Shown here one piece after another: positions 34,279-58,036 of a stretch of DNA of 64,000 nt. The DNA comes from an uncultured Anaerolineales bacterium (GTDB lineage: Bacteria; Chloroflexota; Anaerolineae; Anaerolineales; UBA11858), in NCBI GenBank assembly GCA_964448865.1, contig CAYUXO010000001.1, forward strand, positions 4,747-68,746. The letters run 5' to 3'. Position numbers and translations under genes: made by a program. Under the pieces are notes generated by a model. The model did no database searches. It was given only the letters and a program-made list of their open reading frames with translations, and had not been told where the DNA came from. Every line of letters begins with the position of its first letter. Position 1 is the stretch's first letter.

Positions 34279-34334
34279 TTGTCAGACAATTGACAGATAG
34301 GGGAGTTTTTGTTAAACTTGAAGTTGTCAGACAA
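34279..34334 (+). promoter_or_regulatory. Sigma70-like promoter (TTGACA-17-TAAACT) bracketed by two identical 11-bp palindromes TTGTCAGACAA (candidate GntR/HutC operators)
   Basis: The palindrome occurs at 34279-34289 and 34324-34334. The -35 is TTGACA (34290-34295) and the -10 is TAAACT (34313-34318). It sits 21 bp upstream of the first gene of the catabolic island. Confidence 0.55.
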
Positions 34335-34354
34335 GTCGTTACTCAGGATATACT

Positions 34355-35740
34355 ATGCCGACTCTCCTTGTTAAAAATGCCCAGGTCCTTGTTACAATGG
34401 ATAACCACCGTCATGAGATTGAGAATGGTGGTATTTTTATTAAAGACGGATTTATAGAGGCAGTAGGAAAATCTGATCAGCTTCCCTCAAAAGCAGATCA
34501 GATTCTTGATTTAAAAGGGCATATTGTGCTGCCTGGCCTTGTCAATACTCACCATCATTTTTATCAGACATTAACCCGGGTGGTACCAGATGCTCAGGAT
34601 GCAAATTTATTTAACTGGTTGAAAACTCTCTATCCAATTTGGGCCCGGATGAGGCCGGAAGATATCAGAATATCTACTCAAACTGCTCTGGCTGAACTGG
34701 CTTTATCAGGATGCACCACTGCATCTGATCATCTATATCTATTTCCCAATGGATCAAAGTTGGATGATGAAATTGAAGCAGCGCTTGAAATTGGCGTTAG
34801 ACTTCACGCGTCGCGTGGTTCCATGAGCCTGGGTGAAAGCAAAGGTGGGTTGCCTCCTGATAGTGTAGTAGAAGATGAAGATCAAATTCTTAAAGACTCC
34901 CTGCGTTTAATTGAGGCTTATCATGACAGCCAGCCAGGTTCAATGACCCAGATTGTGCTGGCTCCCTGTTCTCCGTTCAGTGTTACAGGTGATCTGATGC
35001 GTGAAAGTGCAGCTCTTGCCCGACAATATGGGGTTCAGCTGCATACCCACCTGGCCGAAACTGAAGATGAGGTCGATTTTACTATTCAGAAATTTGGTAA
35101 ACGCCCGGTAGCCTATATGGAAGAAGTTGATTGGATTGGTCCTGATGTCTGGTTTGCGCATTCGGTTTATTTGGATAAAGGGGAGATCGGAATTTACGCA
35201 GAACACGGCTGTGGCGTGGCTCACTGCCCGAGCTCAAATATGAGATTAGCGTCTGGCGCTGCTCCCATTCTGGATATGCTTGCAGCAGGTGTTAATGTCG
35301 GATTGGGTGTGGATGGCTCAGCCAGTAATGATGGATCACATCTCCTGGAAGAAACCCGCCAGGCTATGCTCCTGTCCCGGCTCAGAGCCGGTATTATGGG
35401 AGCTTCCCGCTCCGGAAAAAGTGATCAAAAAATCATGACTGCCAGAGGTGCCCTGGAACTGGCTACCATTGGTGGCGCAGAAGTTCTGGGAAGATCGGAT
35501 ATAGGTTCTCTTGAACCAGGAAAAGCAGCCGATTTCACAGCAATCAACCTGAACAGGATCGATTATGCGGGAGCACTGCATGACCCGGTAGCGGCTGTAG
35601 TATTTTGCGCTCCCGTAAAAGTAGACTATACAGTCGTAGGCGGTAAATTTGTGGTCAAGGATGGCCAGCTAACCTCACTTGATTTACCGGTCCAGATAGA
35701 AAAACACAATCAAGCAGCGGCAAGATTGTTAAATAACTAA
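34355..35740 (+). CDS. Amidohydrolase of the 8-oxoguanine deaminase / SsnA / AtzB-like group
   Basis: The N-terminus is LLVKNAQVLVTMD...GGIFIKDGFIEAVG. LPGLVNTHHHFYQTL, HTHLAET, HSVY and GVDGSASND are present. Confidence 0.7.
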   Translation: MPTLLVKNAQVLVTMDNHRHEIENGGIFIKDGFIEAVGKSDQLPSKADQILDLKGHIVLPGLVNTHHHFYQTLTRVVPDAQDANLFNWLKTLYPIWARMRPEDIRISTQTALAELALSGCTTASDHLYLFPNGSKLDDEIEAALEIGVRLHASRGSMSLGESKGGLPPDSVVEDEDQILKDSLRLIEAYHDSQPGSMTQIVLAPCSPFSVTGDLMRESAALARQYGVQLHTHLAETEDEVDFTIQKFGKRPVAYMEEVDWIGPDVWFAHSVYLDKGEIGIYAEHGCGVAHCPSSNMRLASGAAPILDMLAAGVNVGLGVDGSASNDGSHLLEETRQAMLLSRLRAGIMGASRSGKSDQKIMTARGALELATIGGAEVLGRSDIGSLEPGKAADFTAINLNRIDYAGALHDPVAAVVFCAPVKVDYTVVGGKFVVKDGQLTSLDLPVQIEKHNQAAARLLNN

Positions 35741-35775
35741 TTGGGGATTATTTTTATTTACTAGGGAGTAAATGT

Positions 35776-37584
35776 ATGACCAGAGAACAGATCAGCAAAC
35801 GCACCAGATCCCTGGTAGATGTGGCAATGGGCCGGGCAGAAGCCGATATAGTGATTCGCAACGGCCAATGGGTTTGTGTTCAGTCTGGAGAAATCATCCC
35901 GGGTATAGATATTGCCATTATTGGCGAAAGAATCGCATTTGTGGGAGAAGATGCCAGCCATACCATCGGCGAAAGCACCCGGGTGATAGATGCTGATGGA
36001 AAATACCTGGTGCCTGGGTTGCTTGACGCACACATGCATGTTGAGTCGGGAATGGTGACCATCACAGAGTTTGTGAGGGCGGTTGCTCCCCGGGGTACTA
36101 CCGGAATGTTCATAGATCCCCATGAGATTGCCAATGTATTTGGTCTCAAGGGTGTTCGTTTGATGGCTGAAGAGGCAGAAACCCAGCCTATCCATGTTTG
36201 GGTCCAGGTGCCTTCCTGCGTTCCGTCAGCACCCGGCTTGGAAACTCCCGGAGCATCCATCGGCCCGGAAGATGTTGAAGAAGCAATGAAGTGGAAAAAT
36301 ATTATTGGGCTGGGAGAAATGATGAATTTCCCGGGAGTATTCTCCAGCGATGAAAAAATGCATCTGGAGATGGCTGCCACCCGGGCAGCTGGCAAGGTGA
36401 TTGGGGGACATTATGCCTCACCTGATCTGGGAATACCCTTCCATGGTTATGTCGCGGGGGGAGCAGAAGATGATCATGAAGGCACCAGGAAAGAAGATGC
36501 GGTGGCCAGGGTTCGCCAGGGCATGAAATCCATGTTGCGCTACGGATCAGCTTGGCTCGATGTCGAAGCCCAGGTCAAGGCTATCACCGAGGACGGATTG
36601 GATTCGCGTAATTTTATACTTTGCACAGATGATTCCCATTCGGAAACGCTTGTAAATGATGGTCATATGGATCGGGTTCTGAGACACACCATTGGTCTTG
36701 GAGTTGATCCAATGACTGCGCTCCAGATGGCTACTATCAATACAGCAGAACATTTTGGGATGGCCAGGGATATGGGACAGATCGCGCCGGGTAGATTTGC
36801 AGATATCCTCTTGGTGTCAGACCTCGAGAATTTCCAGGCGGAACTGGTCATCGCCAAAGGTGAAGTCCTGGTTGAATCAGGGCAGTGGAAAATAGAGTTG
36901 CCCCCGATTTCCTATCCCGACTGGATAACTAATTCTGTGAATATGAAAAGTTCATTAACTGCTGAAAATTTCCGACTGCCTGTTGATGAAAATATATCAT
37001 CTGGTGAGTTACTGGCTCATGTGATAGGAGTTATCGAAGGTCAAGCCCCCACTAGACACCTTCAAATTCCGGTTAAGGCAGAAAATGGTGAGATACGGGT
37101 AAACCTGGAGGAAGATCTGTCAAAAATCGCTCTGGTTGAGCGGCACCAGGGAACAGGCGGGGTGGTTGTTGGATTGGTGTCCGGGTTTGGTTTAAAAGGG
37201 AAGTGTGCCATTGGCTCTACTGTTGCCCATGATTCCCATCATATGATTGTCGTTGGCACGGATGAAGGTCTAATGGCTTTGGCTGCCAACCAGCTGGCAG
37301 AGATGAATGGCGGCCAGGTAGTGGTTAAAGATGGGGTGGTGATCGGGCAGGTCGCCCTTCCTATTGCGGGACTGATGTCTAATAAACGGGCTGAAGTTGT
37401 CGCTGAAGAAGCTGCCACTGTGCTGGAAGGTTTCCGCACCTGCGGCTGCACGATTGCCAATCCTAATATGCAGCTGAGCCTGTTGGCATTGGTAGTGATA
37501 CCTTCATTGCGTATTTCTGATCTGGGGCTGGTTGATGTAGACGCCTTTTCATTTATCCCTGTTCTTGAAGGAGAAGGCTCTTGA
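35776..37584 (+). CDS. Adenine deaminase (AdeC family), paralog 1
   Basis: 602 aa. It has VPGLLDAHMHVESGM, EMMNFPGV and GHYA, plus the C-terminal AdeC domain (VERHQGTG...STVAHDSHHMIVVG). Confidence 0.75.
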   Translation: MTREQISKRTRSLVDVAMGRAEADIVIRNGQWVCVQSGEIIPGIDIAIIGERIAFVGEDASHTIGESTRVIDADGKYLVPGLLDAHMHVESGMVTITEFVRAVAPRGTTGMFIDPHEIANVFGLKGVRLMAEEAETQPIHVWVQVPSCVPSAPGLETPGASIGPEDVEEAMKWKNIIGLGEMMNFPGVFSSDEKMHLEMAATRAAGKVIGGHYASPDLGIPFHGYVAGGAEDDHEGTRKEDAVARVRQGMKSMLRYGSAWLDVEAQVKAITEDGLDSRNFILCTDDSHSETLVNDGHMDRVLRHTIGLGVDPMTALQMATINTAEHFGMARDMGQIAPGRFADILLVSDLENFQAELVIAKGEVLVESGQWKIELPPISYPDWITNSVNMKSSLTAENFRLPVDENISSGELLAHVIGVIEGQAPTRHLQIPVKAENGEIRVNLEEDLSKIALVERHQGTGGVVVGLVSGFGLKGKCAIGSTVAHDSHHMIVVGTDEGLMALAANQLAEMNGGQVVVKDGVVIGQVALPIAGLMSNKRAEVVAEEAATVLEGFRTCGCTIANPNMQLSLLALVVIPSLRISDLGLVDVDAFSFIPVLEGEGS

Positions 37585-38309
37585 TCAAGGATAATAACGT
37601 TTCCAGGTCTTTACATGAACAGCTCAGCACCTTGATTGCAGACACAGAATCTGGAGAGCAGCTGCCTTCAGAACCCAGGCTGGCAGAAGATTTGGGAGTT
37701 TCCCGAGCTACTCTGAGGGAAGCAATGCGGACTTTCGAAACCCGGGGATTGCTGGAGCGGAAACAAGGCGTGGGGACCTTTGTCATTCACCCAATTCACG
37801 TTTTCGACAGCGGATTGGAGCACCTAATCAGTCTGGAAACTATTGCTGACCATCTTGGTTTGGTAGTTTCAATGGGAGAGCTGAAAGTATGCCAAAAACT
37901 GGTTGATTTTGACCTTTCCCAGGAATTAGGATTACCGGAGAGCGAAAAGATCATTCATGTTTCGAGGGTGATCCAGGCAGACAATAAACCAGTAGCATAC
38001 CTGGAGGATAACCTGCCCATTGATGTGATTAGTGAAGAGGAAGTAAAGTATCACTTCACAGGTTCTGTTCTGGATCTGTTGATCAAACGGGATGATATTC
38101 CGCTGGCAAGTTCAAAATGTGACATAAGTGCCACTGGTGCCACTCCAGACCTGGCAGCAGCGCTGGAAATTCAAGTGAACGATCCCCTGCTGGTTTTTTC
38201 ATCATTGTTGTTTTCTACCCGGGGCAGGATCATTGATTCTTCATTCAGTTATTTTATTCCCGGGTATTTTCATTTTCATATTGTCCGCCGGGTAGGTTAT
38301 CAAACCTAA
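37581..38309 (+). CDS. GntR-family transcriptional regulator, HutC/UTRA subfamily
   Basis: The N-terminal wHTH is LPSEPRLAEDLGVSRATLREAMRTFETRGLLERKQGVGTFV. A C-terminal UTRA-like effector domain is present. The TTG start overlaps the upstream stop. Confidence 0.85.
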   Translation: MIKDNNVSRSLHEQLSTLIADTESGEQLPSEPRLAEDLGVSRATLREAMRTFETRGLLERKQGVGTFVIHPIHVFDSGLEHLISLETIADHLGLVVSMGELKVCQKLVDFDLSQELGLPESEKIIHVSRVIQADNKPVAYLEDNLPIDVISEEEVKYHFTGSVLDLLIKRDDIPLASSKCDISATGATPDLAAALEIQVNDPLLVFSSLLFSTRGRIIDSSFSYFIPGYFHFHIVRRVGYQT

Positions 38310-38413: not shown

Positions 38414-39367
38414 ATGAGAAGTTTTGTAGGACGTGACATCATATCATTGAAGGATATTGAACGACATGAATTTGAACGAATTTTTGAAGTTGCCAAGAAG
38501 TTGGCACCAATCGCTCAAAATCGCAAGAATGTGGATTTGTTAAAAGATAAAATCATGGTGACTGCTTTTTACCAGCCGTCCACCCGCACCCGCCTGGCTC
38601 ACGAATCAGCAATGCTTCGCCTGGGCGGTAAAGTAACTGGTTTTTCTGATGCCAAGATGACTCGCGCTGGTGACTTCTATATGGAGTCCATCAAGGACAC
38701 TTTCAAAATGCTCGAAAATTATGGCGATGTGATCGTTATGCGCCACTTCCAGAAAGGTGCTCCTCACGAAGCAGCCAAATGGGTTAGCATTCCGATCATT
38801 AACGGTGGAGATGGATGGGGAGAACATCCTACCCAGATCCTGACCGATCTTTATACTATTCTGACCGAGAAAGGTCGTCTTGACGGTCTGAAGTGGGTTG
38901 CAGTTGGTGATATGAGGATGCGCACTATGCACTCCCTGGGACATGCCTTAACCCAGTACGACTGCCCAATCACCTTTATCTCTCCCAAAGACATGCAGCT
39001 TCCTGATGAATACCGGGAAGACTTCAAACGCAACAGCCTGAACTTCACTGAGGGTGATGATGTTCGCGAAGTTATAGCTGACGCAGATGTTATTCTGGTT
39101 GAACCTGTTGTGCAGCCGGATTACACCAAATCCCGCGACGAACGGGATGGCGATGTCGCTTTGACACCTCCGGAATTCCAGATTACCAAAGAATTGCTGG
39201 AAACCAAGGCTAAATCTGATGCGGTTCTGCTGCACTCCTTGCCCCGCATGGATGATATTCCTCCGGATGTCGATCAGACCCGCTGGGCTCGCTACTGGAA
39301 AGAAGGATTTAATGGCGTTGTGATGCGCATGGCTCTGCTGGCCCTGGTTCTGGGTGCAGAAGAGTAA
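38414..39367 (+). CDS. Carbamoyltransferase, ATCase-like but divergent in the second-substrate loop
   Basis: STRTR (YQPSTRTRLAHE), RH, GEHPTQ, GDMRMRTMHS and HSLPRMDDI are present. The usual ATCase S-x-KGE-x-x-DT segment is replaced by SDAKMTRAGDFYMESIKDT. Confidence 0.7.
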   Translation: MRSFVGRDIISLKDIERHEFERIFEVAKKLAPIAQNRKNVDLLKDKIMVTAFYQPSTRTRLAHESAMLRLGGKVTGFSDAKMTRAGDFYMESIKDTFKMLENYGDVIVMRHFQKGAPHEAAKWVSIPIINGGDGWGEHPTQILTDLYTILTEKGRLDGLKWVAVGDMRMRTMHSLGHALTQYDCPITFISPKDMQLPDEYREDFKRNSLNFTEGDDVREVIADADVILVEPVVQPDYTKSRDERDGDVALTPPEFQITKELLETKAKSDAVLLHSLPRMDDIPPDVDQTRWARYWKEGFNGVVMRMALLALVLGAEE

Positions 39368-41417: not shown

Positions 41418-41598
41418 CATTCAGATTTATAAGCTTGGATGGACATAAGTTATAAGAAGATATCCTTCTTTAGGACGAAAAGAAATATTCAAGTATACTT
41501 ATGTTATCCAAGTAACGACACAAAATAAAAAAGGAGGCTTTTCTCAATAGTAATGCAGGAAAAGAACCATTGAAATTCCAATGTATAGAGGAGAAAAA

Positions 41599-42864: not shown

Positions 42865-42873
42865 ATCTCACTG

Positions 42874-44520: not shown

Positions 44521-44521
44521 G

Positions 44522-45655: not shown

Positions 45656-45657
45656 TT

Positions 45658-49268: not shown

Positions 49269-49747
49269 TGACTGAAATAACTGTGTCCTTCACCTTGAAC
49301 GGCAAAAAAACAACCTTGACCAGTATTCCGAATCGGACTTTACTGGATGTTCTGCGGGAGGACCTGGGATTAACAGGTGCAAAAGACGCCTGCGGCGGCG
49401 AGGGTGAATGCGGTGCCTGTACGGTATTACTGGATGGAAAACCGATCAATTCCTGCCTGGTATTCATTGGTCAAATTGAGGATGGAAACCTTATTACCAT
49501 TGAGGGATTGGCTTCAAAAGATCATTACCTTCCAATTCAACGGGCTTTTGTGGAAGCAGGTGCTGTTCAATGTGGTTACTGCACTCCTGGTGCTGTTCTA
49601 GCAGCCAAAGCGCTGCTTGATATTGATCCCAATCCATCAGATGAGGAAATCAGGGAAGGTTTATCAGGCAATTTGTGCCGCTGTACCGGGTATAACAAAA
49701 TGGTTGATGCGGTTCACCAGGTGATAAATGAGGCATCGAATGGCTGA
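49268..49747 (+). CDS. Molybdenum hydroxylase [2Fe-2S] subunit
   Basis: CGGEGECGACTVLLDG, NSCL, QCGYCTPG and CRCTGY are present. Confidence 0.9.
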   Translation: MTEITVSFTLNGKKTTLTSIPNRTLLDVLREDLGLTGAKDACGGEGECGACTVLLDGKPINSCLVFIGQIEDGNLITIEGLASKDHYLPIQRAFVEAGAVQCGYCTPGAVLAAKALLDIDPNPSDEEIREGLSGNLCRCTGYNKMVDAVHQVINEASNG

Positions 49748-52018: not shown

Positions 52019-53260
52019 ATGGGAAGTTTTACAGGTTATCAATGTTCAATTTGCGGCAAGCAATACCAACCGGGAGAAGTGACCTATACCTGCCCGGATG
52101 ATAACGGCATCCTCGATGTGCTGCTGGATTATCAGGATCTGGAAAATAAAACAACTGACGAGCTGATCCTGAAGGATGAAAATTCTTTATGGCGTTACTT
52201 TCCGCTCATCCCCGTGGAAAATCTAATTGGTGAAGGCACCACTCTGCGATCGGCAGGCTGGACTCCAACATATTCTCCCCCCCAGTTGAAAAGGAACCTT
52301 GGTGTTAAACAGCTCTGGGTCAAAGATGAGAGCAGCAACCCGACGGCGTCATTTAAGGACCGGGCCAGTGCAGTTCTGGTTGCCCGTGCGAAGGAGATAG
52401 GAGCAGAGGTGATTGTTACAGCTTCTACTGGCAACGCGGGAGCCGCTTTGGCCGGAATGGCTGCTGGAGTGGAACAGGAGTCAGTAATTTTTGCCCCTAA
52501 AACAGCTCCACAGGCGAAAATTGCCCAATTACTGATCTACGGTGCCCGGGTGATCCTGGTAGATGATAATTATGACGCTGCCTACCAGCTATCCCTGGAA
52601 GCGACTGAGGAATTCGGCTGGTATAACCGCAATACGGGATACAACCCCTTCACAGCAGAAGGAAAAAAGACCGCAGCCTATGAAATCTGGGAACAGGTGT
52701 TATTAACTAATCAGTTGGATAAACCCCTGTGTGTATTTGTATCTGTTGGGGATGGTAATATTATCTCTGGAATTCACAAGGGATTTAAAGATCTTTACAG
52801 GATTGGCCAGATCAAGCACATGCCGCGTATCTTCGGCTGCCAGTCAACCGGTTCTGCAGCAATCTATAATGCTTATAAATCCGGGAAAGAAGAAATCAAA
52901 CCAGTGTCTGCAACTACTATGGCAGACAGTATCTCGGTGAACCTGCCCAGTGATGGTCTTAGAGCGCTGCGGGCAGCCACTCAAACTGATGGTGCCTACG
53001 TCGCAGTTGAAGATGAAAAAATCCTGAAAGCAATTGCTGATCTTGGTGAAGTGGGAATCTTCTCTGAACCAGCAGGGGCAACCAGCCTGGCAGGTTTGAA
53101 ACTGGCTCTTGCCGATGGTTTGGTAAAGGAAGATGATCCAATTTTGGTTTTGAATACCGGCAGTGGGTTAAAGGATGTCAAAGCAGCCATGCAGGCGGCC
53201 GGAGAGGCTCCGGTCATAAAGCCGGTCCTTGATGAGGTGAAAAAGCTTCTCGGGAATTGA
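52019..53260 (+). CDS. Threonine-synthase-like fold-type-II PLP enzyme with an N-terminal zinc ribbon
   Basis: CSICG...YTCP is the ribbon. NPTASFKDRAS carries the PLP lysine. ASTGNAGAA and the GSG loop are present. The ATG follows AAGGAG. Confidence 0.7.
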   Translation: MGSFTGYQCSICGKQYQPGEVTYTCPDDNGILDVLLDYQDLENKTTDELILKDENSLWRYFPLIPVENLIGEGTTLRSAGWTPTYSPPQLKRNLGVKQLWVKDESSNPTASFKDRASAVLVARAKEIGAEVIVTASTGNAGAALAGMAAGVEQESVIFAPKTAPQAKIAQLLIYGARVILVDDNYDAAYQLSLEATEEFGWYNRNTGYNPFTAEGKKTAAYEIWEQVLLTNQLDKPLCVFVSVGDGNIISGIHKGFKDLYRIGQIKHMPRIFGCQSTGSAAIYNAYKSGKEEIKPVSATTMADSISVNLPSDGLRALRAATQTDGAYVAVEDEKILKAIADLGEVGIFSEPAGATSLAGLKLALADGLVKEDDPILVLNTGSGLKDVKAAMQAAGEAPVIKPVLDEVKKLLGN

Positions 53261-53293
53261 CCGCAAGGGTTGCACTCAAAAGGTGAGGTTAGG

Positions 53294-54229
53294 ATGAATA
53301 CCAGACCAACATTTTCAATCATTGCTCCTATTTATAACGAGATCGATAACATCACAACTTTGTATGAGCGAGTCACCGCTGTGATGGATCTAACTGATGA
53401 ACCCTGGGAATTTGTAATGATAGATGATGGGTCCTCCGATGGATCGACCGAGGCCATCCTGGAGTTGAGGAGAAAGGACAGTAAAATAGTCCCGGTGATT
53501 TTTGCCAGGAATTTTGGGCACCAAATAGCAGTCACCGCAGGTTTGGATTACAGTCAGGGCGAGGCAGTCATCATCATTGATGCTGATTTGCAGGACCCTC
53601 CTGAAGTGATCCTTGACCTGATTGGGAAGTGGCGTGAAGGTTATGAAGTGGTCTATGCCACCAGGTCCAAACGGGAAGGAGAGAGCCGGTTTAAACTCTT
53701 CACCGCAGCAGCTTTTTACCGACTGATCCAGCGCATTACTGACGTAGACCTTCCCATGAACACAGGCGACTTCCGGCTGCTGGACAGTAAAGTGGTCGAG
53801 GTTATGAACCAGATGCGTGAGAGACACCGTTTTCTGCGGGGTATGTCGGTCTGGGTTGGGTTTAAACAGACTGGCGTGGAATATGAACGAGCGGAAAGAT
53901 TCGCAGGAGAATCCAAGTATCCACTTAAGAAGATGTTCAGATTGGCTAGTGATGCAATTACAGGATTTTCATATTTTCCACTCCAACTGGCGACATACCT
54001 GGGATTTTTTGCCGCAGGGACAGGTATCCTGGCCATACTCGTTATGATTGTCTTACGCTTGACAGGCTCTCAGCTATTTTATGGGCAGGGGATAACCCTG
54101 ATTGCCGTCTTGTTCCTGGGAGGGATTCAACTGATCTCTATCGGTATGCTGGGTGAATATGTTGGCAGACTGTATGATGAAGCAAAGAGCAGGCCGTTAT
54201 ATATAGTGAGGAAAGATCTGGAGGTGTAA
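53294..54229 (+). CDS. Family-2 glycosyltransferase (polyprenyl-phosphate sugar transferase, GtrB/ArnC-like) with two C-terminal TMs
   Basis: ORF 53270..54229. ATG 53294 follows [37 protein letters not shown] and C-terminal hydrophobic helices are present. Confidence 0.8.
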
Positions 54230-54317
54230 CAGGGCAAGGAATAATTTGAATATTAACAATAATATCTGCAGGATTTTATTATTCTAATTTACTTGATTGT
54301 TTGGAAAGGAAAATAAC

Positions 54318-55778
54318 ATGATTGATCTCAGTTTGGATAAGAAACAATTGGAACGCACAGTAGAACGAGCCAGGGAACAGAATATTATCATTCCGACATT
54401 TGCTCAGATGAGGGATCCCGATCTGATCCCTGACAGTATCAAAGAAGAGCTCAAGAATATCGGATTGTGGGATATTACCTCCCGTAACCTGTTCCGCATC
54501 ACCTGGAAGAATGAGCCTGTGGCAACAGGCGGCGGTTATGGCGGAGTAAACTTTGTCGAACTTCCCTCCAGTCTAACAGGAGTTGAGGCCCGGATAGTTG
54601 CCCTGGTAGGGAAATGGTTCCCAACCGGAGCTCATAAAGTTGGCGCTGCTTACGGATGCCTTGTTCCTCCTCTGATCACTGGCCAATTCGATCCGACAGA
54701 ACATGAAGCAGTCTGGCCCTCAACCGGCAACTACTGTCGGGGCGGAGCTTATGACTCGGCTTTGCTGGCCTGTAAATCAGTGGCGATTCTGCCAGAGGAA
54801 ATGAGCCGGGAGCGCTTTGAATGGCTAGAGAAAGTTGCTGGAGAGGTTATTGCCACTCCCGGATCCGAAAGTAATGTAAAAGAGATCTACGATAAGGTCT
54901 GGGAATTACGTGCAACCCGGGATAATATTTTTGTCTTCAACCAATTTGACGAATTTGGAAATTATCTCTGGCACTACGATATCACCGGTCATGCAATGGA
55001 AGAAGTCCTGCAGCAGGTTATGGGACCGAACGATGAGTACCGGGGAGTGGCCCTGACAACAGGTTCTGCTGGAACAATTGGCTGTGGAGATTACCTGAAG
55101 CAGCTCTTCCCCAGCAGCAAGATAGCTGCCGGAGAGGCTTTGCAATGCCCGACACTTCTGGAAAATGGCTTTGGCGCCCATCGCATTGAGGGTATTGGTG
55201 ATAAACACGTTCCCTGGATTCACAATGTCAAAAACACCGATATGATTATCGGGATTGACGACAATACTGTGGTAAATCTGGCCAGGTTGTTTAATGAGCC
55301 TGAAGGCAGAAAATACCTGGTAAAACAGGGAGTTTCAGAGGATCTGGTTGGACAATTGGATCTGCTTGGTTTTTCAAGTATTGCCAATACAGTGATGGCG
55401 ATCAAGATGGCAAAGTATTACGAGATGGACGAGAACGATATCATCTTGACTGTCTGGACCGATTCGATGGAATTGTATGAAAGCCGTTTGAAGGAAATGC
55501 ATGATGAAATTGGTGATTACACTGAAGTTGACGCTGCCCGGACCCACGCCCAGTATCTGGATGGCCTGACCCCCAATTACCTACAAGATCTGCGCTACGA
55601 AGATCAGCGCCGGGTTCATAACCTGAAGTATTTCACCTGGGTAGAGCAGCAGGGCAAAACCTTTGAAGAGATCCAGTCTCAATGGTATGATCGCGATTAT
55701 TGGACCAATTTCCAGAAACAAATTCCGGAGATTGATGGTTTGATTGACGAGTTTAATGCGAAAGTTGGTTTGATCTAG
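54318..55778 (+). CDS. Large fold-type-II PLP-dependent enzyme (Trp-synthase-beta/cysteine-synthase-like; possibly OrtB-like thiolase/lyase)
   Basis: ORF 54297..55778; ATG 54318 is preferred. FPTGAHKVGAAYG is the candidate PLP lysine. STGNYCRGGA, TTGSAGT and GIGDKH are present. The ~100-aa C-terminal extension is uncharacterised. Confidence 0.6.
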   Translation: MIDLSLDKKQLERTVERAREQNIIIPTFAQMRDPDLIPDSIKEELKNIGLWDITSRNLFRITWKNEPVATGGGYGGVNFVELPSSLTGVEARIVALVGKWFPTGAHKVGAAYGCLVPPLITGQFDPTEHEAVWPSTGNYCRGGAYDSALLACKSVAILPEEMSRERFEWLEKVAGEVIATPGSESNVKEIYDKVWELRATRDNIFVFNQFDEFGNYLWHYDITGHAMEEVLQQVMGPNDEYRGVALTTGSAGTIGCGDYLKQLFPSSKIAAGEALQCPTLLENGFGAHRIEGIGDKHVPWIHNVKNTDMIIGIDDNTVVNLARLFNEPEGRKYLVKQGVSEDLVGQLDLLGFSSIANTVMAIKMAKYYEMDENDIILTVWTDSMELYESRLKEMHDEIGDYTEVDAARTHAQYLDGLTPNYLQDLRYEDQRRVHNLKYFTWVEQQGKTFEEIQSQWYDRDYWTNFQKQIPEIDGLIDEFNAKVGLI

Positions 55779-55850: not shown

Positions 55851-55921
55851 AAAGATAACGGGGGAAATGATTATTCTCAGAAAATGAATTAAGCGCTTCT
55901 TTAAAGTAAGGGGGTTAATTG

Positions 55922-56500
55922 ATGAATAAATCTTACTTGTCGCCTATGGCTTTAATCCTGGTTGCAATTATCCCTTCACCGGAGGATTTGCAGTTAGCCC
56001 GGATCCTGGGATGGTATCGCATCCCACTTCGATCAGCTCCCCGGATTCTTAATGTCGACTACCTGGCTTTTTATCAACCGGCCTCATTTAAACAAAGGAA
56101 ATGGCAGGTCGAATATTTGGCAGCGGTTCTGGGGCATGAATTGACCACAAGAATTGAACTGCTCAAGGACCAGGCAGATCATCCCCGAGCTGAGGAAGAG
56201 TACTATAAAATTCAGCTGGGTTCAATTCAGAAATTAAGCCAGCCAATTTCGGCTGCTGATTGGAAAAGATTCACGTTTTTGTACACAACCGGGGAATATT
56301 TTCGGGGGGCAAAAATCCTTACTGACCTGACCGTTTGTCCATCAGAAAGAAGAGCGCTTTGGAAGACTCTCCGGGATCGAGCCAGCAGCCAATCCAGGTA
56401 TTTTGAAGAATGGGATATTCCAGATGATCTGCCCCTGGATGCGCTGTCCGCCCTGCTGGGTATTACATCAGATCAGTTTGATGGTAATGAATGGAAATGA
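55922..56500 (+). CDS. Conserved-looking hypothetical protein (GWYRIP...YLAFYQ motif)
   Basis: 192 aa with an AGGGGG SD. No domain was recognised with confidence. Confidence 0.5.
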   Translation: MNKSYLSPMALILVAIIPSPEDLQLARILGWYRIPLRSAPRILNVDYLAFYQPASFKQRKWQVEYLAAVLGHELTTRIELLKDQADHPRAEEEYYKIQLGSIQKLSQPISAADWKRFTFLYTTGEYFRGAKILTDLTVCPSERRALWKTLRDRASSQSRYFEEWDIPDDLPLDALSALLGITSDQFDGNEWK

Positions 56501-56614
56501 TTATTGATTTCTGCCAGTTATTACTTGAGAGGACTGCAGGATGAAGAAATGGCCTGGGGTATAATCTTCCCAACGGGTCAATTATTATGAATCTGGGTTG
56601 AAAAAGGATTAATA

Positions 56615-58036
56615 ATGGGAACGACATTAATAAAGAATGGAACTTTAATTACTGCAGAAAAATCATTCCCAGCTGACCTGTTGATTGTCGATGAACAAAT
56701 TGCCCAGGTAGGGGAGAATCTGGAAGCTCCTGGGGCAGAGATTGTAGATGCCGGGGGACAATTTGTGTTACCAGGTGGAATCGATCCCCATGTGCATCTG
56801 GACCTGGCAATGTTTGAAACTGTTTCGTCTGATGATCATTATACAGGCCATAAAGCTGCAGCTTTTGGGGGTACCACAACAGTAATGGATTTTGTTGAGG
56901 ATAAGGACCCTGACCTATTGAAAAATATTTCCGCGTTAAGGGAAAAAGCTGATCCCAAAGCAGCTATTGATTACAGTTTCCACCTCAATATCACAAAATT
57001 CGATCAAAAAGTAGCCGACCAGATTCCAGCCATTTTGAAATCGGGAGTGACAACGCTAAAGGTATTTACAGCCTATAACAACCGTCTGCGTCTTCAGGAT
57101 GGAGAAATATTCCAGTTAATGCTGAAAGCAGCTGAATACGGTTTATTGACCATGCTTCACGCTGAAAATGGTGACGTGATTGACATCCTTGTAGCCCAGG
57201 CACTAAATGCTGGCCGCACAGAGCCAATCTGGCATGCCAGGACTAGACCTGCCTGGGGTGCAGTGGAGGCTGTGTTACGGGGCGCTGCCCTGGCAGCCCA
57301 GGCTGATGCACCGTTGTATATCGTTCATATGAATACTGCCGGGGGGATCGACCAGCTGGCGTATGCCAGGGAGCGCGGTTTAAAGGTAATGGGAGAGACC
57401 TGTCCTCAATATATGTTCTTCTCTGAAGAGGACCTGGAACGACCGGATGGAGCTAAATGGATTTGTTCTCCTCCCATGAGGACCAAAATCGATCAAGCCA
57501 GGATCTGGCAGGGATTAACAGCAAACACTTTGCAAACAGTAGGCACTGACCACTGTCCATTTTTCTATGATGGGACCAAACCAATTGAATATGAAGGATA
57601 CCCCGTGATGATTCCCGGAAAAGAACTGGGAAAAAATGATTTTACAAAGATTCCTAACGGATTACCGGGGGTGGAGGACAGGATGCCGATTCTCTGGACA
57701 GAAGGTGTTGGAAAGGGAAAAATTACGGCTAACCAATTTGTCGCTTTTACAAGTACAAATCCGGCAAAGATATTTGGTTTATATCCTAAGAAAGGTTGTT
57801 TAGAGCCCGGGTCAGACGCTGACCTGGTGATCTGGGATCCCGGGAAGAAATTGATTTATGGAGTTGATGTTGCTCATCATCGGACTGATTACAACCTTTA
57901 CGAAGGCTGGGAGCTGGAAGGATATCCTGAAAAAGTATTCCTACGGGGGAAATGCATTGTTGATGGTGAAAAATGGCTCGGTAAAAAAGGTCAGGGAAAG
58001 TTCCTGGCAAGGAAGCCATTTGCAGAGGTAGTTTAG
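56615..58036 (+). CDS. Dihydropyrimidinase / D-hydantoinase (cyclic amidohydrolase)
   Basis: LPGGIDPHVHL, TLKVFTAY (carboxylated Lys), MLHAENG, VHMNT and GTDHCPF are present. The protein is 473 aa. Confidence 0.85.
   Translation: MGTTLIKNGTLITAEKSFPADLLIVDEQIAQVGENLEAPGAEIVDAGGQFVLPGGIDPHVHLDLAMFETVSSDDHYTGHKAAAFGGTTTVMDFVEDKDPDLLKNISALREKADPKAAIDYSFHLNITKFDQKVADQIPAILKSGVTTLKVFTAYNNRLRLQDGEIFQLMLKAAEYGLLTMLHAENGDVIDILVAQALNAGRTEPIWHARTRPAWGAVEAVLRGAALAAQADAPLYIVHMNTAGGIDQLAYARERGLKVMGETCPQYMFFSEEDLERPDGAKWICSPPMRTKIDQARIWQGLTANTLQTVGTDHCPFFYDGTKPIEYEGYPVMIPGKELGKNDFTKIPNGLPGVEDRMPILWTEGVGKGKITANQFVAFTSTNPAKIFGLYPKKGCLEPGSDADLVIWDPGKKLIYGVDVAHHRTDYNLYEGWELEGYPEKVFLRGKCIVDGEKWLGKKGQGKFLARKPFAEVV

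What the first reader, a model, noticed from the sequence alone, without database searches (positions are those of the whole stretch)
34279..58036. A 24-kb plus-strand nucleobase (probably purine) catabolic island with an ATP-yielding carbamoyl-phosphate branch
The genes are nearly all contiguous on one strand. They are:
- an SsnA/8-oxoguanine-deaminase-like amidohydrolase and an AdeC-like deaminase
- a GntR/HutC regulator
- two carbamoyltransferases and a carbamate kinase
- a BMP-type ABC importer (4 genes)
- a second AdeC-like deaminase
- a three-subunit Mo-hydroxylase
- two fold-type-II PLP enzymes
- a hydantoinase

The component families overlap those of the E. coli K-12 ygeW-ygeX-ygeY-hyuA-yqeA / ssnA-ygfM-xdhD region and related clostridial purine-fermentation clusters. 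The shared families are carbamoyltransferase, PLP lyase, hydantoinase, carbamate kinase, SsnA and XDH-family enzymes.

The set also differs: I recognised no M20 peptidase and no YgfK-like or selenium-related genes in this window. It has extra AdeC paralogs and an extra ATCase-like enzyme. The island could encode a variant anaerobic purine or ureide degradation route that is not described for this lineage.
Basis: partly seen in the sequence, partly recalled or inferred. Interest (0 to 1): 0.72.

Follow-up and report, generated by a model that had tools for sequence, protein, structure and literature searches.

The report
Anaerolineales purine-breakdown cluster with ATP-yielding carbamoyl branch
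This is a conserved, probably repressor-controlled gene cluster of anaerobic Chloroflexota (Anaerolineales) that most likely breaks down purine bases and harvests ATP from their urea-like groups through two unusual carbamoyltransferases and a carbamate kinase; it is a new variant of the gut-bacterial uric-acid pathway described in 2025, but its ring-reducing and first ring-opening steps are not encoded here.

Summary
In detail: 19 same-strand genes lie at 34355-58036 with the listed families.

In 79 Anaerolineales genome loci the block PLP413-GT2-PLP493-unk193-hydantoinase keeps its order. The GntR/two-carbamoyltransferase/carbamate-kinase, Bmp-ABC and AdeC2/Mo-hydroxylase modules are shuffled in upstream.

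A palindrome, TTGTCAGACAA, flanks the promoter-like site before the first gene. All 28 exact copies in 1.33 Mb of related loci are intergenic, before the deaminase gene (11), PLP493 (16) or GT2 (1). This points to one regulon.

Both carbamoyltransferases are non-canonical. One is a "pseudo-ATCase" (HSLP, RxQ lost). The other has a motif set matching no described class. The "threonine synthase" lacks the invariant ThrC arginine.

CT2, CK and Hyd are 36-50% identical to E. coli YgeW, YqeA and HyuA. YgeY-like peptidases sit in or beside the pseudo-ATCase slot in some relatives.

SsnA, YgfK, XdhD-type, YgeX and selenium genes are absent.

Best reading: a purine funnel plus a ygeW/hyuA/yqeA-like lower pathway, possibly giving two carbamoyl phosphates per purine. 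New variant of a known kind; interest moderate.

The parts
34279..34334 (+). Control region. Two copies of the palindrome TTGTCAGACAA (34279-34289 and 34324-34334) bracket a sigma-70-like promoter (TTGACA 34290-34295, 17-nt spacer, TAAACT 34313-34318), 21 nt upstream of the first ATG. Probable operator pair of the cluster's GntR/HutC regulator.
   Evidence: 5 matches at <=1 mismatch vs 1.24 expected, and 0 of 100 shuffles reach 5; all 28 exact copies in 1.33 Mb of related loci are intergenic; 8 of 8 orthologous deaminase genes and 15 of 59 PLP493 genes have it upstream, and no other cluster gene except one GT2.
34355..35740 (+). 8-oxoguanine-deaminase-family amidohydrolase (461 aa), head gene of the regulon. 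Inferred role: deamination of an aminopurine (8-oxoguanine or guanine type).
   Evidence: NF006055, 681 bits vs cut-off 532; SsnA models 155-160 bits, below 444-455; 28% to GuaD, 25% to SsnA.
35776..37584 (+). AdeC-family amidohydrolase 1 (602 aa). Inferred adenine (or modified adenine) deaminase.
   Evidence: Adenine_deam_C domain; TIGR01178, 513 bits vs 472.5. In relatives the gene before GntR is this one, the 8-oxoG-deaminase-like gene, or both.
37581..38309 (+). GntR/HutC-type transcription regulator (GntR HTH + UTRA effector domain)
   Evidence: It keeps its position before the carbamoyltransferases in 24 of 27 informative loci.
38414..39367 (+). Pseudo-ATCase carbamoyltransferase (pATC, 317 aa). 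The carbamoyl-phosphate site is intact; the aspartate site is lost.
   Evidence: STRTR and HPTQ are kept, HPLP has become HSLP, and 'TRIQKER' is replaced by 'EPVVQPD'; matches the pseudo-ATCase motif classes; motifs are fixed in orthologues; 78-92% identical across Anaerolineae contigs.
39471..40451 (+). Second carbamoyltransferase (CT2, 326 aa), from the OTC/AOTC/YgeW radiation, of unknown specificity
   Evidence: below every NCBIfam cut-off. STRT/HP(H/F)Q/KSWG/HPLP; no OTCase SMG or HCLP; 36% identical to YgeW (199 bits).
40461..41417 (+). Carbamate kinase (318 aa)
   Evidence: TIGR00746, 376 bits vs 358; NF009007, 405 vs 266; 50% identical to E. coli YqeA.
41581..46629 (+). Bmp/PnrA-type ABC importer: lipoprotein substrate-binding protein (41581-42864), double ATPase (42970-44520) and two permeases (44498-45655, 45658-46629). 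A perfect 15-bp-arm hairpin at 42874-42906 lies between the SBP and ATPase genes.
   Evidence: This module is optional in relatives.
46633..48387 (+). AdeC-family amidohydrolase 2 (584 aa), 35% identical to AdeC1
   Evidence: (TIGR01178, 488 bits vs 472.5). It travels with the Mo-hydroxylase genes in relatives.
48402..51992 (+). Three-subunit molybdenum hydroxylase: FAD subunit (48402-49268), 2Fe-2S subunit (49268-49747) and Mo subunit (49728-51992). Inferred xanthine/purine dehydrogenase type.
   Evidence: below all equivalog cut-offs; best PDB match is 4-hydroxybenzoyl-CoA reductase alpha (392 bits); XDH about 225. GGAFGGKE, MRGFGSPQ and GEIP are conserved; Arg is kept where XdhD has Gln; 32% to XdhA vs 27% to XdhD.
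52019..53260 (+). ThrC-paralogue PLP enzyme (PLP413) with an N-terminal Cys-rich ribbon. It is not a canonical threonine synthase.
   Evidence: five solved ThrCs have NxxRxEGQKT and STG(N/D)T; this protein has NPFTAEGKKT and STGNAGAA; fixed in 82 of 82 orthologues.
53270..54229 (+). GT2 glycosyltransferase of the GtrB/ArnC/PgfS type with two C-terminal membrane helices (probable start 53294). Its role in the cluster is unexplained.
   Evidence: It follows PLP413 in 75 of 79 loci.
54297..55778 (+). Divergent CysK/CBS-like fold-type-II PLP enzyme (PLP493; probable start 54318, 486 aa). Inferred beta-eliminating lyase. Followed by a stem-loop at 55798-55828.
   Evidence: PLP lysine, Asn loop and phosphate loop align; 78-98% identical across Chloroflexota; 43-44% homologues lie beside TauE/SafE, RidA and M20 genes on Rhizobium and Bosea plasmids; operator upstream in 15 of 59 relatives.
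55919..56500 (+). Conserved protein of unknown function (unk193; probable start 55922). Possibly a PUA-like fold.
   Evidence: no family; 6,676 relatives, all 'hypothetical'; the model has pLDDT 51; Foldseek gives only weak YTH/EVE/ASCH hits (TM about 0.3); it keeps its position between PLP493 and Hyd.
56615..58036 (+). D-hydantoinase/dihydropyrimidinase (473 aa), a HyuA-family cyclic amidohydrolase. Followed by a stem-loop at 58060-58086.
   Evidence: TIGR02033, 521 bits vs 393; allantoinase model 250 vs 358; 39% identical to E. coli HyuA..

Best explanation
This is a chromosomal, probably repressor-controlled purine-catabolic regulon conserved in Anaerolineales.

**Shown by sequence analysis:**
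- the gene families
- their conserved order
- the shared palindromic operator
- the non-canonical active-site motifs

**Inferred pathway:**
1. Nucleosides or bases enter through the Bmp-type ABC importer.
2. Aminopurines are deaminated by the 8-oxoguanine-deaminase-like enzyme and the two AdeC paralogues.
3. The XdhA-like Mo-hydroxylase oxidises the products towards xanthine and urate.
4. One or more dearomatising and first ring-opening steps follow that are NOT encoded in the cluster.
5. The HyuA-like hydantoinase opens a hydantoin- or dihydropyrimidine-type intermediate to a (di)ureido acid such as 2,3-diureidopropionate.
6. The ureido groups are removed by phosphorolysis. The YgeW-like CT2 takes one. 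The pseudo-ATCase most likely takes the other, in place of, or alongside, the hydrolytic YgeY peptidase used by E. coli.
7. Carbamate kinase converts the carbamoyl phosphate to ATP, up to two ATP per purine.
8. The remaining diamino acid is converted to pyruvate and ammonia by one or both divergent fold-type-II PLP enzymes, which stand in for YgeX.

The GntR/HutC protein probably represses at least two promoters through TTGTC-W-GACAA sites.
For: - **Families and thresholds:**
- **Direct homology to E. coli proteins:** YgeW 36%, YqeA 50%, HyuA 39%, XdhA 32%.
- **pATC:** it keeps the carbamoyl-phosphate motifs but has lost the aspartate-binding RxQ, and HPLP has become HSLP. This is fixed in orthologues.
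- **CT2:** it lacks the OTCase ornithine motifs.
- **Both CTs sit immediately before the carbamate kinase** in 24 or more loci.
- **Conserved gene order:** 79 loci, all annotated Chloroflexota (mostly Anaerolineales), despite shuffling of the upstream modules.
- **Operator:** it lies upstream of 8 of 8 deaminase genes and 15 of 59 PLP493 genes, and of no other cluster gene except one GT2.
- **Head of the operon:** it is always a purine-type deaminase, either 8-oxoG-deaminase-like, AdeC-like or both.
- **YgeY-like M20 peptidases** (39-41% to E. coli YgeY) occur inside the same operon in L004, L066, L072, L083 and L097. In L066 one sits exactly in the pATC slot with pATC absent.
- **Mo subunit:** it has XDH-type residues, including the Arg that XdhD replaces with Gln.
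- **PLP493 relatives** lie beside RidA and TauE/SafE genes, typical of beta-eliminating lyases.
- **The biochemistry of the homologous E. coli and Clostridium enzymes** is published (PMC12507026; bioRxiv 10.1101/2025.04.24.650524; PMC12990295).
Against: - There is no SsnA, YgfK/UacX-type or F420-type reductase, XdhD-type urate reductase, YgeX, YqeB/YqeC or SelD in the window or in any of the fetched related loci. The middle of the known pathway is therefore missing, and whole genomes could not be inspected.
- CT2 scores below the YgeW models (202-211 bits vs cut-offs 453-500) and about as well against OTC and AOTC models, so it is not a YgeW orthologue.
- pATC and YgeY-like genes co-occur in L004, L072 and L097, so simple replacement is not proven.
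- The direction of the carbamoyltransferase reactions cannot be read from sequence. Carbamate kinase can also work anabolically in some organisms.
- The window itself has no operator copy before PLP493.
- A GT2 membrane glycosyltransferase and an unknown protein are constant members with no role in this scheme.
- In the closer relatives, synteny also extends to housekeeping folP and htpG, so part of the order conservation reflects shared ancestry.
- No expression or enzyme data exist.
Confidence: 0.5

Rival explanations
1. Ureide (allantoin/allantoate) fermentation. The hydantoinase acts as an allantoinase. The pseudo-ATCase phosphorolyses allantoate to ureidoglycine plus carbamoyl phosphate, as proposed for the Rubrobacter pseudo-ATCase. 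CT2 removes the second carbamoyl group (for example from oxalurate), and carbamate kinase makes ATP. No ring reduction is required.
For: - Barba et al. [quoted passage not shown]
- Allantoate has two ureido groups, which matches two carbamoyltransferases.
- This reading would explain the absence of any reductase or SsnA.
Against: - Hyd scores 521 bits on the D-hydantoinase model but only 250 on the allantoinase model (cut-off 358).
- pATC has HSLP. The Rubrobacter-type subgroup 1 signature is HPLA with AIA/AIS/SIA.
- The allantoate route needs no fold-type-II PLP lyase, yet PLP493 is co-regulated and highly conserved.
- YgeY-like peptidases in the operon point to the diureidopropionate branch.
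- No uricase, HIU hydrolase or ureidoglycine-processing genes recur nearby.
Confidence: 0.15
2. Catabolism of another cyclic ureide: dihydropyrimidines, 5-substituted hydantoins or N-carbamoyl amino acids. Hyd opens the ring. The two carbamoyltransferases phosphorolyse two related N-carbamoyl (beta- or alpha-) amino acids. The purine deaminase and XDH genes are merely co-located feeder or salvage functions.
For: - Hyd is an above-threshold member of the dihydropyrimidinase/D-hydantoinase equivalog.
- The purine modules (AdeC2-XDH, Bmp-ABC) are optional across relatives.
- Distant pseudo-ATCases occur with creatininase or with a DHO_dh-type reductase.
Against: - The operator links a purine-type deaminase gene directly to PLP493-unk193-Hyd.
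- The operon head is always a purine-type deaminase.
- Beta-amino acids from pyrimidines would not need fold-type-II beta-lyases.
- No dihydropyrimidine dehydrogenase recurs nearby.
Confidence: 0.12
3. No single pathway. The region is a syntenic mosaic of separate housekeeping functions (pyrB, argF and arcC for carbamoyl-phosphate use, thrC, a cysK-like gene, a cell-envelope GT2) lying next to purine salvage genes, conserved only through common descent.
For: - pATC passes the TIGR00670 ATCase cut-off (255 vs 237) and PLP413 passes TIGR00260 thrC (175 vs 167).
- The GT2 gene has no obvious catabolic role.
- Synteny extends to folP and htpG in the closer relatives.
Against: - pATC has lost the Asp-binding RxQ and HPLP.
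- CT2 lacks the ornithine motifs.
- PLP413 lacks the invariant ThrC Arg in 82 of 82 orthologues.
- A GntR/HutC regulator and a shared operator tie the units together.
- The block persists where the flanking housekeeping genes differ.
Confidence: 0.06

Closest known systems
E. coli ygeW-ygeX-ygeY-hyuA-yqeA / ygfK-ssnA-ygfM-xdhD cluster: the reductive 2,8-dioxopurine (yanthine) uric-acid pathway (Li et al. 2025, PMC12507026; Liu et al. 2025, bioRxiv 10.1101/2025.04.24.650524)
   Same: - A HyuA-family hydantoinase (39% identical), a carbamate kinase (50%) and a YgeW-related carbamoyltransferase (36%).
- An XDH-family enzyme and purine deaminases nearby.
- YgeY-like peptidases (39-41%) inside the operon in some relatives.
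- The same logic of ureido phosphorolysis to carbamoyl phosphate to ATP, ending with a fold-type-II PLP enzyme.
   Different: - No SsnA, YgfK/UacX, XdhD-type reductase, YgeX or selenium-cofactor genes.
- An additional pseudo-ATCase.
- Two unrelated PLP enzymes (a ThrC paralogue and a CysK-like protein) instead of YgeX.
- A GntR/HutC regulator instead of sigma-54 YgeV/UacR.
- A Bmp ABC importer instead of UacT/XanQ permeases.
- Conserved GT2 and unk193 genes.
Pseudo-ATCases of Barba et al. 2013 (PMC4016543), especially subgroup 2 (Nocardioides sp. JS614: pseudo-ATCase next to a ygeW homologue, xdhABC and hyuA)
   Same: - An ATCase-like protein with STRT and HPTQ, H[ST]LP instead of HPLP, and RxQ lost.
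- It is adjacent to a YgeW-like carbamoyltransferase.
- XDH subunits and a hydantoinase are in the same cluster.
   Different: - The residues replacing RxQ (…VEPVVQP…) fit the subgroup 3 'VXP' pattern better than the subgroup 2 'GX[SC]' pattern.
- Different phylum and an anaerobic lifestyle.
- The carbamate kinase, PLP enzymes and regulator context were not described there.
- The Nocardioides genome could not be inspected here.
Rubrobacter xylanophilus ureidoglycine carbamoyltransferase route (pseudo-ATCase subgroup 1) and E. coli / Streptococcus oxamate transcarbamylase with carbamate kinase in allantoin fermentation (PMC4016543; PMC11326118; PMC9843812)
   Same: A catabolic carbamoyltransferase coupled to carbamate kinase gains ATP from a purine-derived ureide; a cyclic amidohydrolase lies upstream.
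   Different: - The motif signature differs (HPLA with AIA/AIS/SIA vs HSLP with VEP/VQP).
- There is no allantoinase-type enzyme, uricase or glyoxylate genes here.
- E. coli oxamate transcarbamylase (AllFGH) is an unrelated protein family.
Arginine deiminase pathway (catabolic OTCase + carbamate kinase)
   Same: The energy-conserving principle is the same: phosphorolysis of a ureido compound followed by substrate-level phosphorylation.
   Different: CT2 lacks the ornithine-binding SMG and HCLP motifs, and there is no arginine deiminase or arginine/ornithine antiporter.

Membership tests
Reductive 2,8-dioxopurine (urate) pathway gene cluster | SsnA ring-opening amidohydrolase (IPR017700 / TIGR03314) | tested here: not met
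   TIGR03314 155 bits vs cut-off 455.5, NF005540 160 vs 444; 25% identity to E. coli SsnA. None in the related loci.
Reductive 2,8-dioxopurine (urate) pathway gene cluster | Dearomatising reductase (YgfK, UacX/PydA-type, or the F420 luciferase-like enzyme) | tested here: not met
   no YgfK or YgfT hit in the window; no recurrent reductase family in 83 related loci. The rest of the genome could not be inspected.
Reductive 2,8-dioxopurine (urate) pathway gene cluster | XdhD/XdhAC-type urate-reducing Mo enzyme | tested here: not met
   27% to XdhD vs 32% to XdhA. The window enzyme keeps Arg in MRGFGSPQ where XdhD has Gln. It has separate FAD and FeS subunits like XdhABC.
Reductive 2,8-dioxopurine (urate) pathway gene cluster | HyuA-family hydantoinase (IPR011778 / TIGR02033) | tested here: met
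   521 bits vs 393; 39% identical to HyuA over the full length.
Reductive 2,8-dioxopurine (urate) pathway gene cluster | YgeW knotted carbamoyltransferase | tested here: inconclusive
   CT2 is 36% identical (199 bits); it scores 202-211 bits against the YgeW models (cut-offs 453-500) and 259 against the OTC and AOTC models; the motifs differ (HPHQ/HPLP vs YgeW HPTQ/HCLP).
Reductive 2,8-dioxopurine (urate) pathway gene cluster | Carbamate kinase adjacent to the carbamoyltransferase | tested here: met
   TIGR00746 376 vs 358; 50% identical to YqeA; 9-bp gap after CT2.
Reductive 2,8-dioxopurine (urate) pathway gene cluster | YgeY M20 peptidase | tested here: not met
   absent from the window. It is present (39-41% identity) in the same operon in the related loci L004, L066, L072, L083 and L097.
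Reductive 2,8-dioxopurine (urate) pathway gene cluster | YgeX 2,3-diaminopropionate ammonia-lyase | tested here: not met
   the DAP ammonia-lyase models score 56-64 bits vs cut-offs 276-532; only 27% identity over 206 aa for PLP413, and no hit for PLP493.
Reductive 2,8-dioxopurine (urate) pathway gene cluster | Selenium-cofactor trait genes (YqeB, YqeC, SelD) | tested here: not met
   no YqeB or YqeC in the window. SelD was not queried, and the rest of the genome is not available.
Aspartate carbamoyltransferase (PyrB) | Asp-binding RxQ (E. coli R229/Q231) and the HPLP loop | tested here: not met
   RxQ is replaced (…VEPVVQP…), and HSLP is found in 24 of 24 orthologues. The score passes TIGR00670 only marginally (255 vs 237) and fails NF002032 (224 vs 263).
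Pseudo-ATCase (Barba et al. 2013) | STRT + HPTQ kept, H[ST]LP or HPLA instead of HPLP, RxQ lost, gene context away from pyrC | tested here: met
   The context is GntR-pATC-CT2-CK. Whether a genuine pyrB exists elsewhere in the genome was not tested.
Ornithine carbamoyltransferase | Ornithine-binding DxxxSMG and HCLP motifs | tested here: not met
   CT2 has KSWG and HPLP; below the OTCase cut-offs (259 vs 306; 247.5 vs 280.85).
Threonine synthase (ThrC) | Invariant Arg in NxxRxEGQKT and Thr in STG(N/D)T (phosphate site, from my own knowledge of ThrC structures), plus the PLP lysine | tested here: not met
   the Arg is present in all 5 solved ThrCs; PLP413 has Thr and STGNAGAA; 82 of 82 orthologues agree. 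The PLP lysine motif SFKDR is present. TIGR00260 is passed only marginally (175 vs 167).
Xanthine dehydrogenase family (purine hydroxylase type) | Three cofactor modules, plus Glu/Arg/Glu equivalents of bovine E802, R880 and E1261 (numbering from my own knowledge), and no CODH active-site loop | tested here: met
   Equivalog cut-offs are not reached, however (pucD 541 vs 784; XdhA 484 vs 780), so substrate specificity remains open.
8-oxoguanine deaminase (NF006055) | Score above the curated equivalog cut-off; catalytic activity | tested here: met
   681 bits vs 532. The activity itself is not testable with these tools.
GntR/HutC regulator with operator | GntR HTH + UTRA domain, and palindromic operator(s) at regulated promoters | tested here: met
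   for the domains; for the conserved TTGTC-W-GACAA pairs. Binding itself was not tested.

The most novel reading that the evidence does not exclude
Anaerolineales run a purine fermentation that differs from both known anaerobic routes in three ways:
1. Both ureido groups of the ring-derived diureido acid are harvested as carbamoyl phosphate, by a YgeW-like enzyme and an orphan pseudo-ATCase. That would give two ATP per purine and assign the first physiological function to that pseudo-ATCase class.
2. The terminal deamination uses new fold-type-II PLP lyases: a ThrC paralogue without the phosphate-binding Arg, and a 486-aa CysK-like enzyme.
3. Ring dearomatisation and opening do not use SsnA or YgfK, and instead rely on the AdeC-like or 8-oxoguanine-deaminase-like amidohydrolases, the unknown 193-aa protein, or both.
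Probability: 0.2. Interest if true: 0.75.

Novelty: new variant of a known kind. Interest (0 to 1): 0.55.

Why it matters
- **Ecology.** Anaerolineales are abundant fermenters in sediments, digesters and sludge that live largely on necromass. A conserved cluster that turns purine bases into ATP by substrate-level phosphorylation would be a concrete energy source for them.
- **Extending the 2025 pathway.** It would carry the gut-bacterial uric-acid pathway into an environmental phylum, in a form that may conserve twice as much energy per purine.
- **Orphan enzymes.** It offers a testable function for pseudo-ATCases, which have been orphans since 2013. It also flags a threonine-synthase look-alike and an ATCase look-alike that automated pipelines will misname.
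- **Unknown chemistry.** It points to unknown enzymes for purine-ring reduction and opening in this lineage.
- **Regulation.** The operator motif gives a handle for defining the whole regulon in complete genomes.

Tried and rejected
- **Rfam scan of the whole window:** no riboswitch or other RNA family.
- **Promoter and terminator scans:** counts are no higher than in shuffles; only the site at 34290-34318 was used, because the operator copies flank it.
- **AlphaFold2 models of unk193 and PLP493:** both are poor (mean pLDDT 51 and 48). The Foldseek hits for unk193 (YTH/EVE/ASCH, TM about 0.3, E >= 4e-3) are only a hint. The PLP493 model was not searched.
- **Profile search of unk193 against PDB sequences:** nothing.
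- **tblastn of pATC against plasmids:** only genuine pyrB genes at 40% identity or less.
- **Contexts of distant pseudo-ATCases (42-50% identity):** heterogeneous and on short contigs, so they do not inform the function of this family.
- **Xanthinase (Rabinowitz) pathway:** the gene-cluster paper (Tong et al.) is not in the library, so membership in that pathway could not be tested. It generates only one ureido group and needs a decarboxylase and a formiminotransferase, neither of which was identified among the Pfam or NCBIfam matches here.
- **Genuine ATCase, OTCase or ThrC readings:** rejected on the active-site motifs.
- **CO-dehydrogenase or aldehyde-oxidase reading of the Mo enzyme:** rejected.
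- **'Horizontally acquired island':** rejected on composition and on conserved housekeeping flanks.

Full report
**1. The observation**

The reported stretch holds 19 open reading frames, all on the + strand, from 34355 to 58036. Inter-gene distances run from -23 to +163 bp.

| Coordinates | Gene (label used here) | Key evidence |
|---|---|---|
| 34355-35740 | 8-oxoguanine-deaminase-family amidohydrolase (oxoGdeam) | NF006055, 681 bits vs cut-off 532 |
| 35776-37584 | AdeC-family protein 1 (AdeC1) | TIGR01178, 513 bits vs 472.5 |
| 37581-38309 | GntR+UTRA regulator | Pfam domains |
| 38414-39367 | ATCase-like carbamoyltransferase (pATC) | TIGR00670, 255 vs 237 |
| 39471-40451 | second carbamoyltransferase (CT2) | below all cut-offs |
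| 40461-41417 | carbamate kinase (CK) | TIGR00746, 376 vs 358 |
| 41581-46629 | four-gene Bmp-type ABC importer | Pfam domains |
| 46633-48387 | AdeC-family protein 2 (AdeC2) | TIGR01178, 488 bits vs 472.5 |
| 48402-51992 | FAD / 2Fe-2S / Mo hydroxylase | Pfam domains |
| 52019-53260 | fold-type-II PLP protein (PLP413) | PALP domain |
| 54297-55778 | fold-type-II PLP protein (PLP493) | PALP domain |
| 56615-58036 | D-hydantoinase/dihydropyrimidinase (Hyd) | TIGR02033, 521 vs 393 |

Gene calls on identical metagenome contigs suggest slightly later starts for three genes: 53294, 54318 and 55922.

The flanks are housekeeping genes (gyrB and a Ser/Thr kinase upstream; folP, htpG and surE downstream), and base composition is unremarkable. 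However, this is a conserved chromosomal cluster, not an acquired island.

**2. What the individual proteins are**

*First amidohydrolase.* It is not SsnA. The SsnA models score 155-160 bits against cut-offs of 444-455, and the protein is 25% identical to E. coli SsnA.

*The ATCase-like protein (pATC).* It keeps the carbamoyl-phosphate motifs STRTR and HPTQ. It has HSLP instead of HPLP, and 'TRIQKER' (the aspartate-binding RxQ) is replaced by 'EPVVQPD'. That is the signature of the 'pseudo-ATCases' defined by Barba et al. 2013. It is fixed in the orthologues: HSLPR in 24 of 24.

*The second transferase (CT2).* It falls below every curated cut-off. It has KSWG (as in acetylornithine/YgeW-type enzymes) rather than the ornithine SMG motif. 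Its combination STRT/HP(H/F)Q/HPLP fits no described class.

*PLP413.* It passes the thrC model only marginally. All five solved threonine synthases have NxxRxEGQKT and STG(N/D)T. PLP413 has NPFTAEGKKT and STGNAGAA, in 82 of 82 orthologues. From my own knowledge, that Arg binds the phosphate of O-phosphohomoserine. PLP413 is therefore a neofunctionalised ThrC paralogue.

*PLP493.* It is a divergent CysK/CBS-like enzyme with the PLP lysine, Asn loop and phosphate loop in place. It is 78-98% identical across Chloroflexota. Its only annotated relatives found (43-44% identity) lie on Rhizobium and Bosea plasmids. There they sit next to TauE/SafE exporters, a RidA imine deaminase, M20 peptidases and amino-acid transporters. 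That setting is typical of beta-eliminating amino-acid lyases.

*The Mo subunit.* It resembles 4-hydroxybenzoyl-CoA reductase and nicotinate dehydrogenase more than bovine XDH in overall score. It nevertheless carries GGAFGGKE, MRGFGSPQ and GEIP. From my own knowledge, these are the equivalents of bovine E802, R880 and E1261. It keeps the Arg that E. coli XdhD replaces with Gln, and it is closer to XdhA (32%) than to XdhD (27%). It is not a CO-dehydrogenase or aldehyde-oxidase type.

*unk193.* It has thousands of 'hypothetical' relatives. Its AlphaFold model is poor, and the weak Foldseek hits to PUA-like folds are no more than a hint.

**3. Conservation of the neighbourhood**

A scan of species-representative genomes with PLP413 returned 79 loci. 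All are annotated as Chloroflexota and most as Anaerolineales, at 62-92% identity. I mapped all 19 window proteins onto them.

The ordered block PLP413-GT2-PLP493-unk193-Hyd is the constant part:

| Gene following PLP413 | All 79 loci | 35 full-length loci |
|---|---|---|
| GT2 | 75 | 35 |
| PLP493 | 58 | 31 |
| unk193 | 44 | 27 |
| Hyd | 36 | 26 |

Upstream of the block the arrangement is modular:
- **Compact form:** oxoGdeam-GntR-pATC-CT2-CK directly before PLP413.
- **With transporter:** a form with the Bmp-ABC module inserted.
- **As in the window:** a form with AdeC2 and the Mo-hydroxylase inserted.

pATC-centred look-ups gave the same picture. The gene before GntR is the 8-oxoG-deaminase-like gene, an AdeC-like gene, or both.

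No reductase, SsnA or other new enzyme family recurs in these loci. The recurrent extras are a second Bmp-type ABC system, an AI-2E permease, an Exo_endo_phos protein and mobile-element fragments. In the closer relatives folP and htpG also recur. That last point shows that part of the order conservation is simple shared ancestry.

**4. Evidence for co-regulation**

The 166-bp region before the first gene contains two copies of the perfect palindrome TTGTCAGACAA (34279-34289 and 34324-34334). They bracket the best promoter-like site in the region: TTGACA, 17 nt, TAAACT. In the window the motif is over-represented: 5 matches at one mismatch or fewer against 1.24 expected, and 0 of 100 shuffles reach 5.

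In 1.33 Mb of related loci all 28 exact copies are intergenic. They often occur as pairs roughly 45-55 bp apart.

| Location of exact copies | Count |
|---|---|
| before the deaminase gene | 11 |
| between GT2 and PLP493 | 16 |
| before GT2 | 1 |

At one mismatch or fewer, 8 of 8 deaminase genes and 15 of 59 PLP493 genes carry the motif upstream. Apart from one GT2 gene, no other cluster gene does.

This is the pattern expected for the operator of the cluster's GntR/HutC regulator controlling at least two promoters. It ties the deaminase-regulator-transferase-kinase operon to PLP493-unk193-Hyd. The window itself has no copy before PLP493.

**5. Comparison with the known anaerobic urate pathway**

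In E. coli and clostridia the pathway runs as follows:
1. Urate is reduced to 2,8-dioxopurine (XdhD/YgfM or XdhAC).
2. The ring is dearomatised (YgfK or UacX).
3. It is opened by SsnA to ureidomethyl-hydantoin.
4. It is opened again by HyuA to 2,3-diureidopropionate.
5. One ureido group is removed by YgeW, yielding carbamoyl phosphate and then ATP via YqeA.
6. The other ureido group is hydrolysed by YgeY.
7. YgeX converts 2,3-diaminopropionate to pyruvate.

Direct BLASTP against the K-12 proteins:

| Window protein | E. coli protein | Identity |
|---|---|---|
| CT2 | YgeW | 36% |
| CK | YqeA | 50% |
| Hyd | HyuA | 39% |
| Mo / FAD / FeS subunits | XdhA / XdhB / XdhC | 32 / 29 / 44% |

There is no YgfK, YgeY, YqeB, YqeC or MocA in the window, and no real YgeX.

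YgeY-like M20 peptidases (39-41% identical to E. coli YgeY, about 300 bits) do occur inside the same operon in five related loci. Among the 27 loci where the slot before CT2 is readable:

| Content of the slot before CT2 | Loci |
|---|---|
| pATC only | 22 |
| YgeY-like + pATC | 2 |
| YgeY-like only (in L066, exactly in the pATC position) | 2 |
| neither | 1 |

A more diverged contig has AdeC-like – pATC (63%) – YgeY-like.

The lower half of the cluster is therefore recognisably ygeW/ygeY/hyuA/yqeA-like. The pseudo-ATCase is an added or alternative ureido-cleaving enzyme.

**6. Most likely mechanism**

*Shown:* the families, the order conservation, the operator and the motif changes.

*Inferred:*
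1. Bases or nucleosides are imported.
2. Aminopurines are deaminated (8-oxoG-deaminase-like enzyme, AdeC1, AdeC2).
3. The XdhA-like enzyme hydroxylates the products.
4. After reduction and ring-opening steps that are not encoded here, Hyd opens a hydantoin- or dihydropyrimidine-type ring.
5. CT2 and pATC phosphorolyse the ureido groups.
6. Carbamate kinase makes ATP.
7. PLP493 and/or PLP413 deaminate the residual diamino acid.

I put about 0.5 on this scheme as a whole. I put more (about 0.8) on the general statement 'purine/ureide catabolism with a carbamoyl-phosphate-to-ATP branch'. I put less (about 0.3) on the specific claim that both ureido groups yield carbamoyl phosphate.

The main weaknesses are:
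- the missing middle of the pathway
- the co-occurrence of pATC with YgeY-like genes in some loci
- the unexplained GT2 and unk193 genes
- the absence of any experimental data

**7. Rivals**

- **Allantoin/allantoate fermentation.** This would need no reductase and has a precedent for a pseudo-ATCase. However, Hyd is not allantoinase-like (250 bits vs cut-off 358). The motif signature differs from the Rubrobacter subgroup. The co-regulated PLP lyase and the YgeY-like genes fit diureidopropionate better.
- **Pyrimidine or hydantoin catabolism.** This is possible for the Hyd/transferase/kinase core. It does not explain the purine-type head genes under the same operator.
- **A mosaic of housekeeping pyrB/argF/thrC genes.** This is contradicted by the fixed loss of the defining active-site residues.

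**8. Novelty**

- The anaerobic reductive pathway was published in 2025.
- Pseudo-ATCases next to ygeW-like, xdh and hyuA genes were noted in Nocardioides in 2013, without a function.
- Li et al. mention SsnA clusters with an F420-type reductase in Chloroflexota. Those were found through SsnA, which this cluster lacks.
- I found no description of this Anaerolineales cluster, its operator, its two PLP enzymes or the pATC/YgeY alternation in the searchable literature.

It is a new variant of a known kind. Interest is moderate (0.55). The interesting points are the possible doubling of the ATP yield, a candidate function for an orphan enzyme class, and the implied unknown ring-reduction and ring-opening chemistry.

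Noticed in passing
window 53270-54229 (probable start 53294): A GtrB/ArnC/PgfS-like GT2 glycosyltransferase with two C-terminal membrane helices sits between the two PLP genes and follows PLP413 in 75 of 79 related loci. In some relatives an AI-2E-family permease is inserted between PLP413 and GT2. The PLP413-GT2 pair also persists in about 8 loci that lack PLP493 and Hyd. It has no obvious role in purine catabolism.
   Followed up: partly
window 58396-58758 and 58000-60000: A truncated REP-associated tyrosine transposase (RAYT) ORF lies in a low-GC stretch (0.37) just after the hydantoinase gene. Full-length members of the same family sit downstream of Hyd in 8 related loci (for example L012, L014, L018, L020, L021, L023, L031).
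   Followed up: partly
window 27870-29921 (- strand): A 683-aa amidohydrolase of the TRZ/ATZ / MTA-deaminase group with a C-terminal extension of about 200 aa. It is below all NCBIfam cut-offs, and its SsnA-model score (226-230 bits) is higher than that of the cluster's own deaminase. It lies 4.4 kb upstream on the opposite strand, next to metallophosphoesterase, inositol-monophosphatase and aldo-keto-reductase genes.
   Followed up: partly
window 42874-42906; also 55798-55828 and 58060-58086: A perfect 15-bp-arm hairpin with a 3-nt loop lies between the Bmp substrate-binding-protein gene and the ATPase gene; it may be an mRNA-stability element. Perfect 11- and 12-bp stem-loops lie directly after PLP493 and after Hyd.
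   Followed up: no
L002, L004, L028, L029, L030 (between pATC, CT2 and CK); L032, L036 (between unk193 and Hyd): Small '23S rRNA intervening-sequence protein' genes (PF05635, about 125 aa) are inserted at varying intergenic positions of the cluster in 10 related loci, as if mobile.
   Followed up: no
L008-L014, L024, L025 and others (between the permease and ATPase genes upstream of PLP413): A second Bmp-type ABC system occurs in 20 related loci. Its substrate-binding protein is an internally duplicated (tandem) Bmp domain of about 596 aa.
   Followed up: no
L085 (Rhizobium sp. NXC24 plasmid, 8959-10458) and L086 (Bosea vaviloviae plasmid, 9070-10404): Full-length homologues of PLP493 (43-44% identity) in Alphaproteobacteria lie beside TauE/SafE sulfite-exporter-family genes, RidA, M20 peptidases and amino-acid/TRAP transporters. 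This suggests an uncharacterised beta-lyase family, possibly a desulfonating one.
   Followed up: partly
window 17649-23417 (- strand) and 33082-34188 (+): A signalling cluster: response regulator, FHA-domain protein, VWA-DnaJ protein, PP2C phosphatase and a Ser/Thr kinase fused to a beta-propeller. A second Ser/Thr kinase lies immediately upstream of the purine cluster. In relatives the corresponding kinase is fused to Tricorn/PD40 repeats.
   Followed up: no
window 326-2161 and 2174-2686; 23721-25112: A 611-aa protein with a Schlafen AlbA_2 domain is followed by a MogA/MoaB-type molybdenum-cofactor biosynthesis gene. An adenylosuccinate lyase (purB, 335 bits vs 326) lies 9 kb upstream of the cluster.
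   Followed up: no
L092 (248-5149): A 50%-identical pseudo-ATCase relative sits in a different putative catabolic cluster with an SDR, an Asp/Glu-racemase/Amdase-like protein, a DHO_dh (PydA/UacX-family) reductase and an aminotransferase. Other RxQ-less ATCase-like proteins sit with creatininase + SHMT or with HMGL-like + aminotransferase genes. Together they indicate a broad, unexplored radiation of such carbamoyltransferases.
   Followed up: partly
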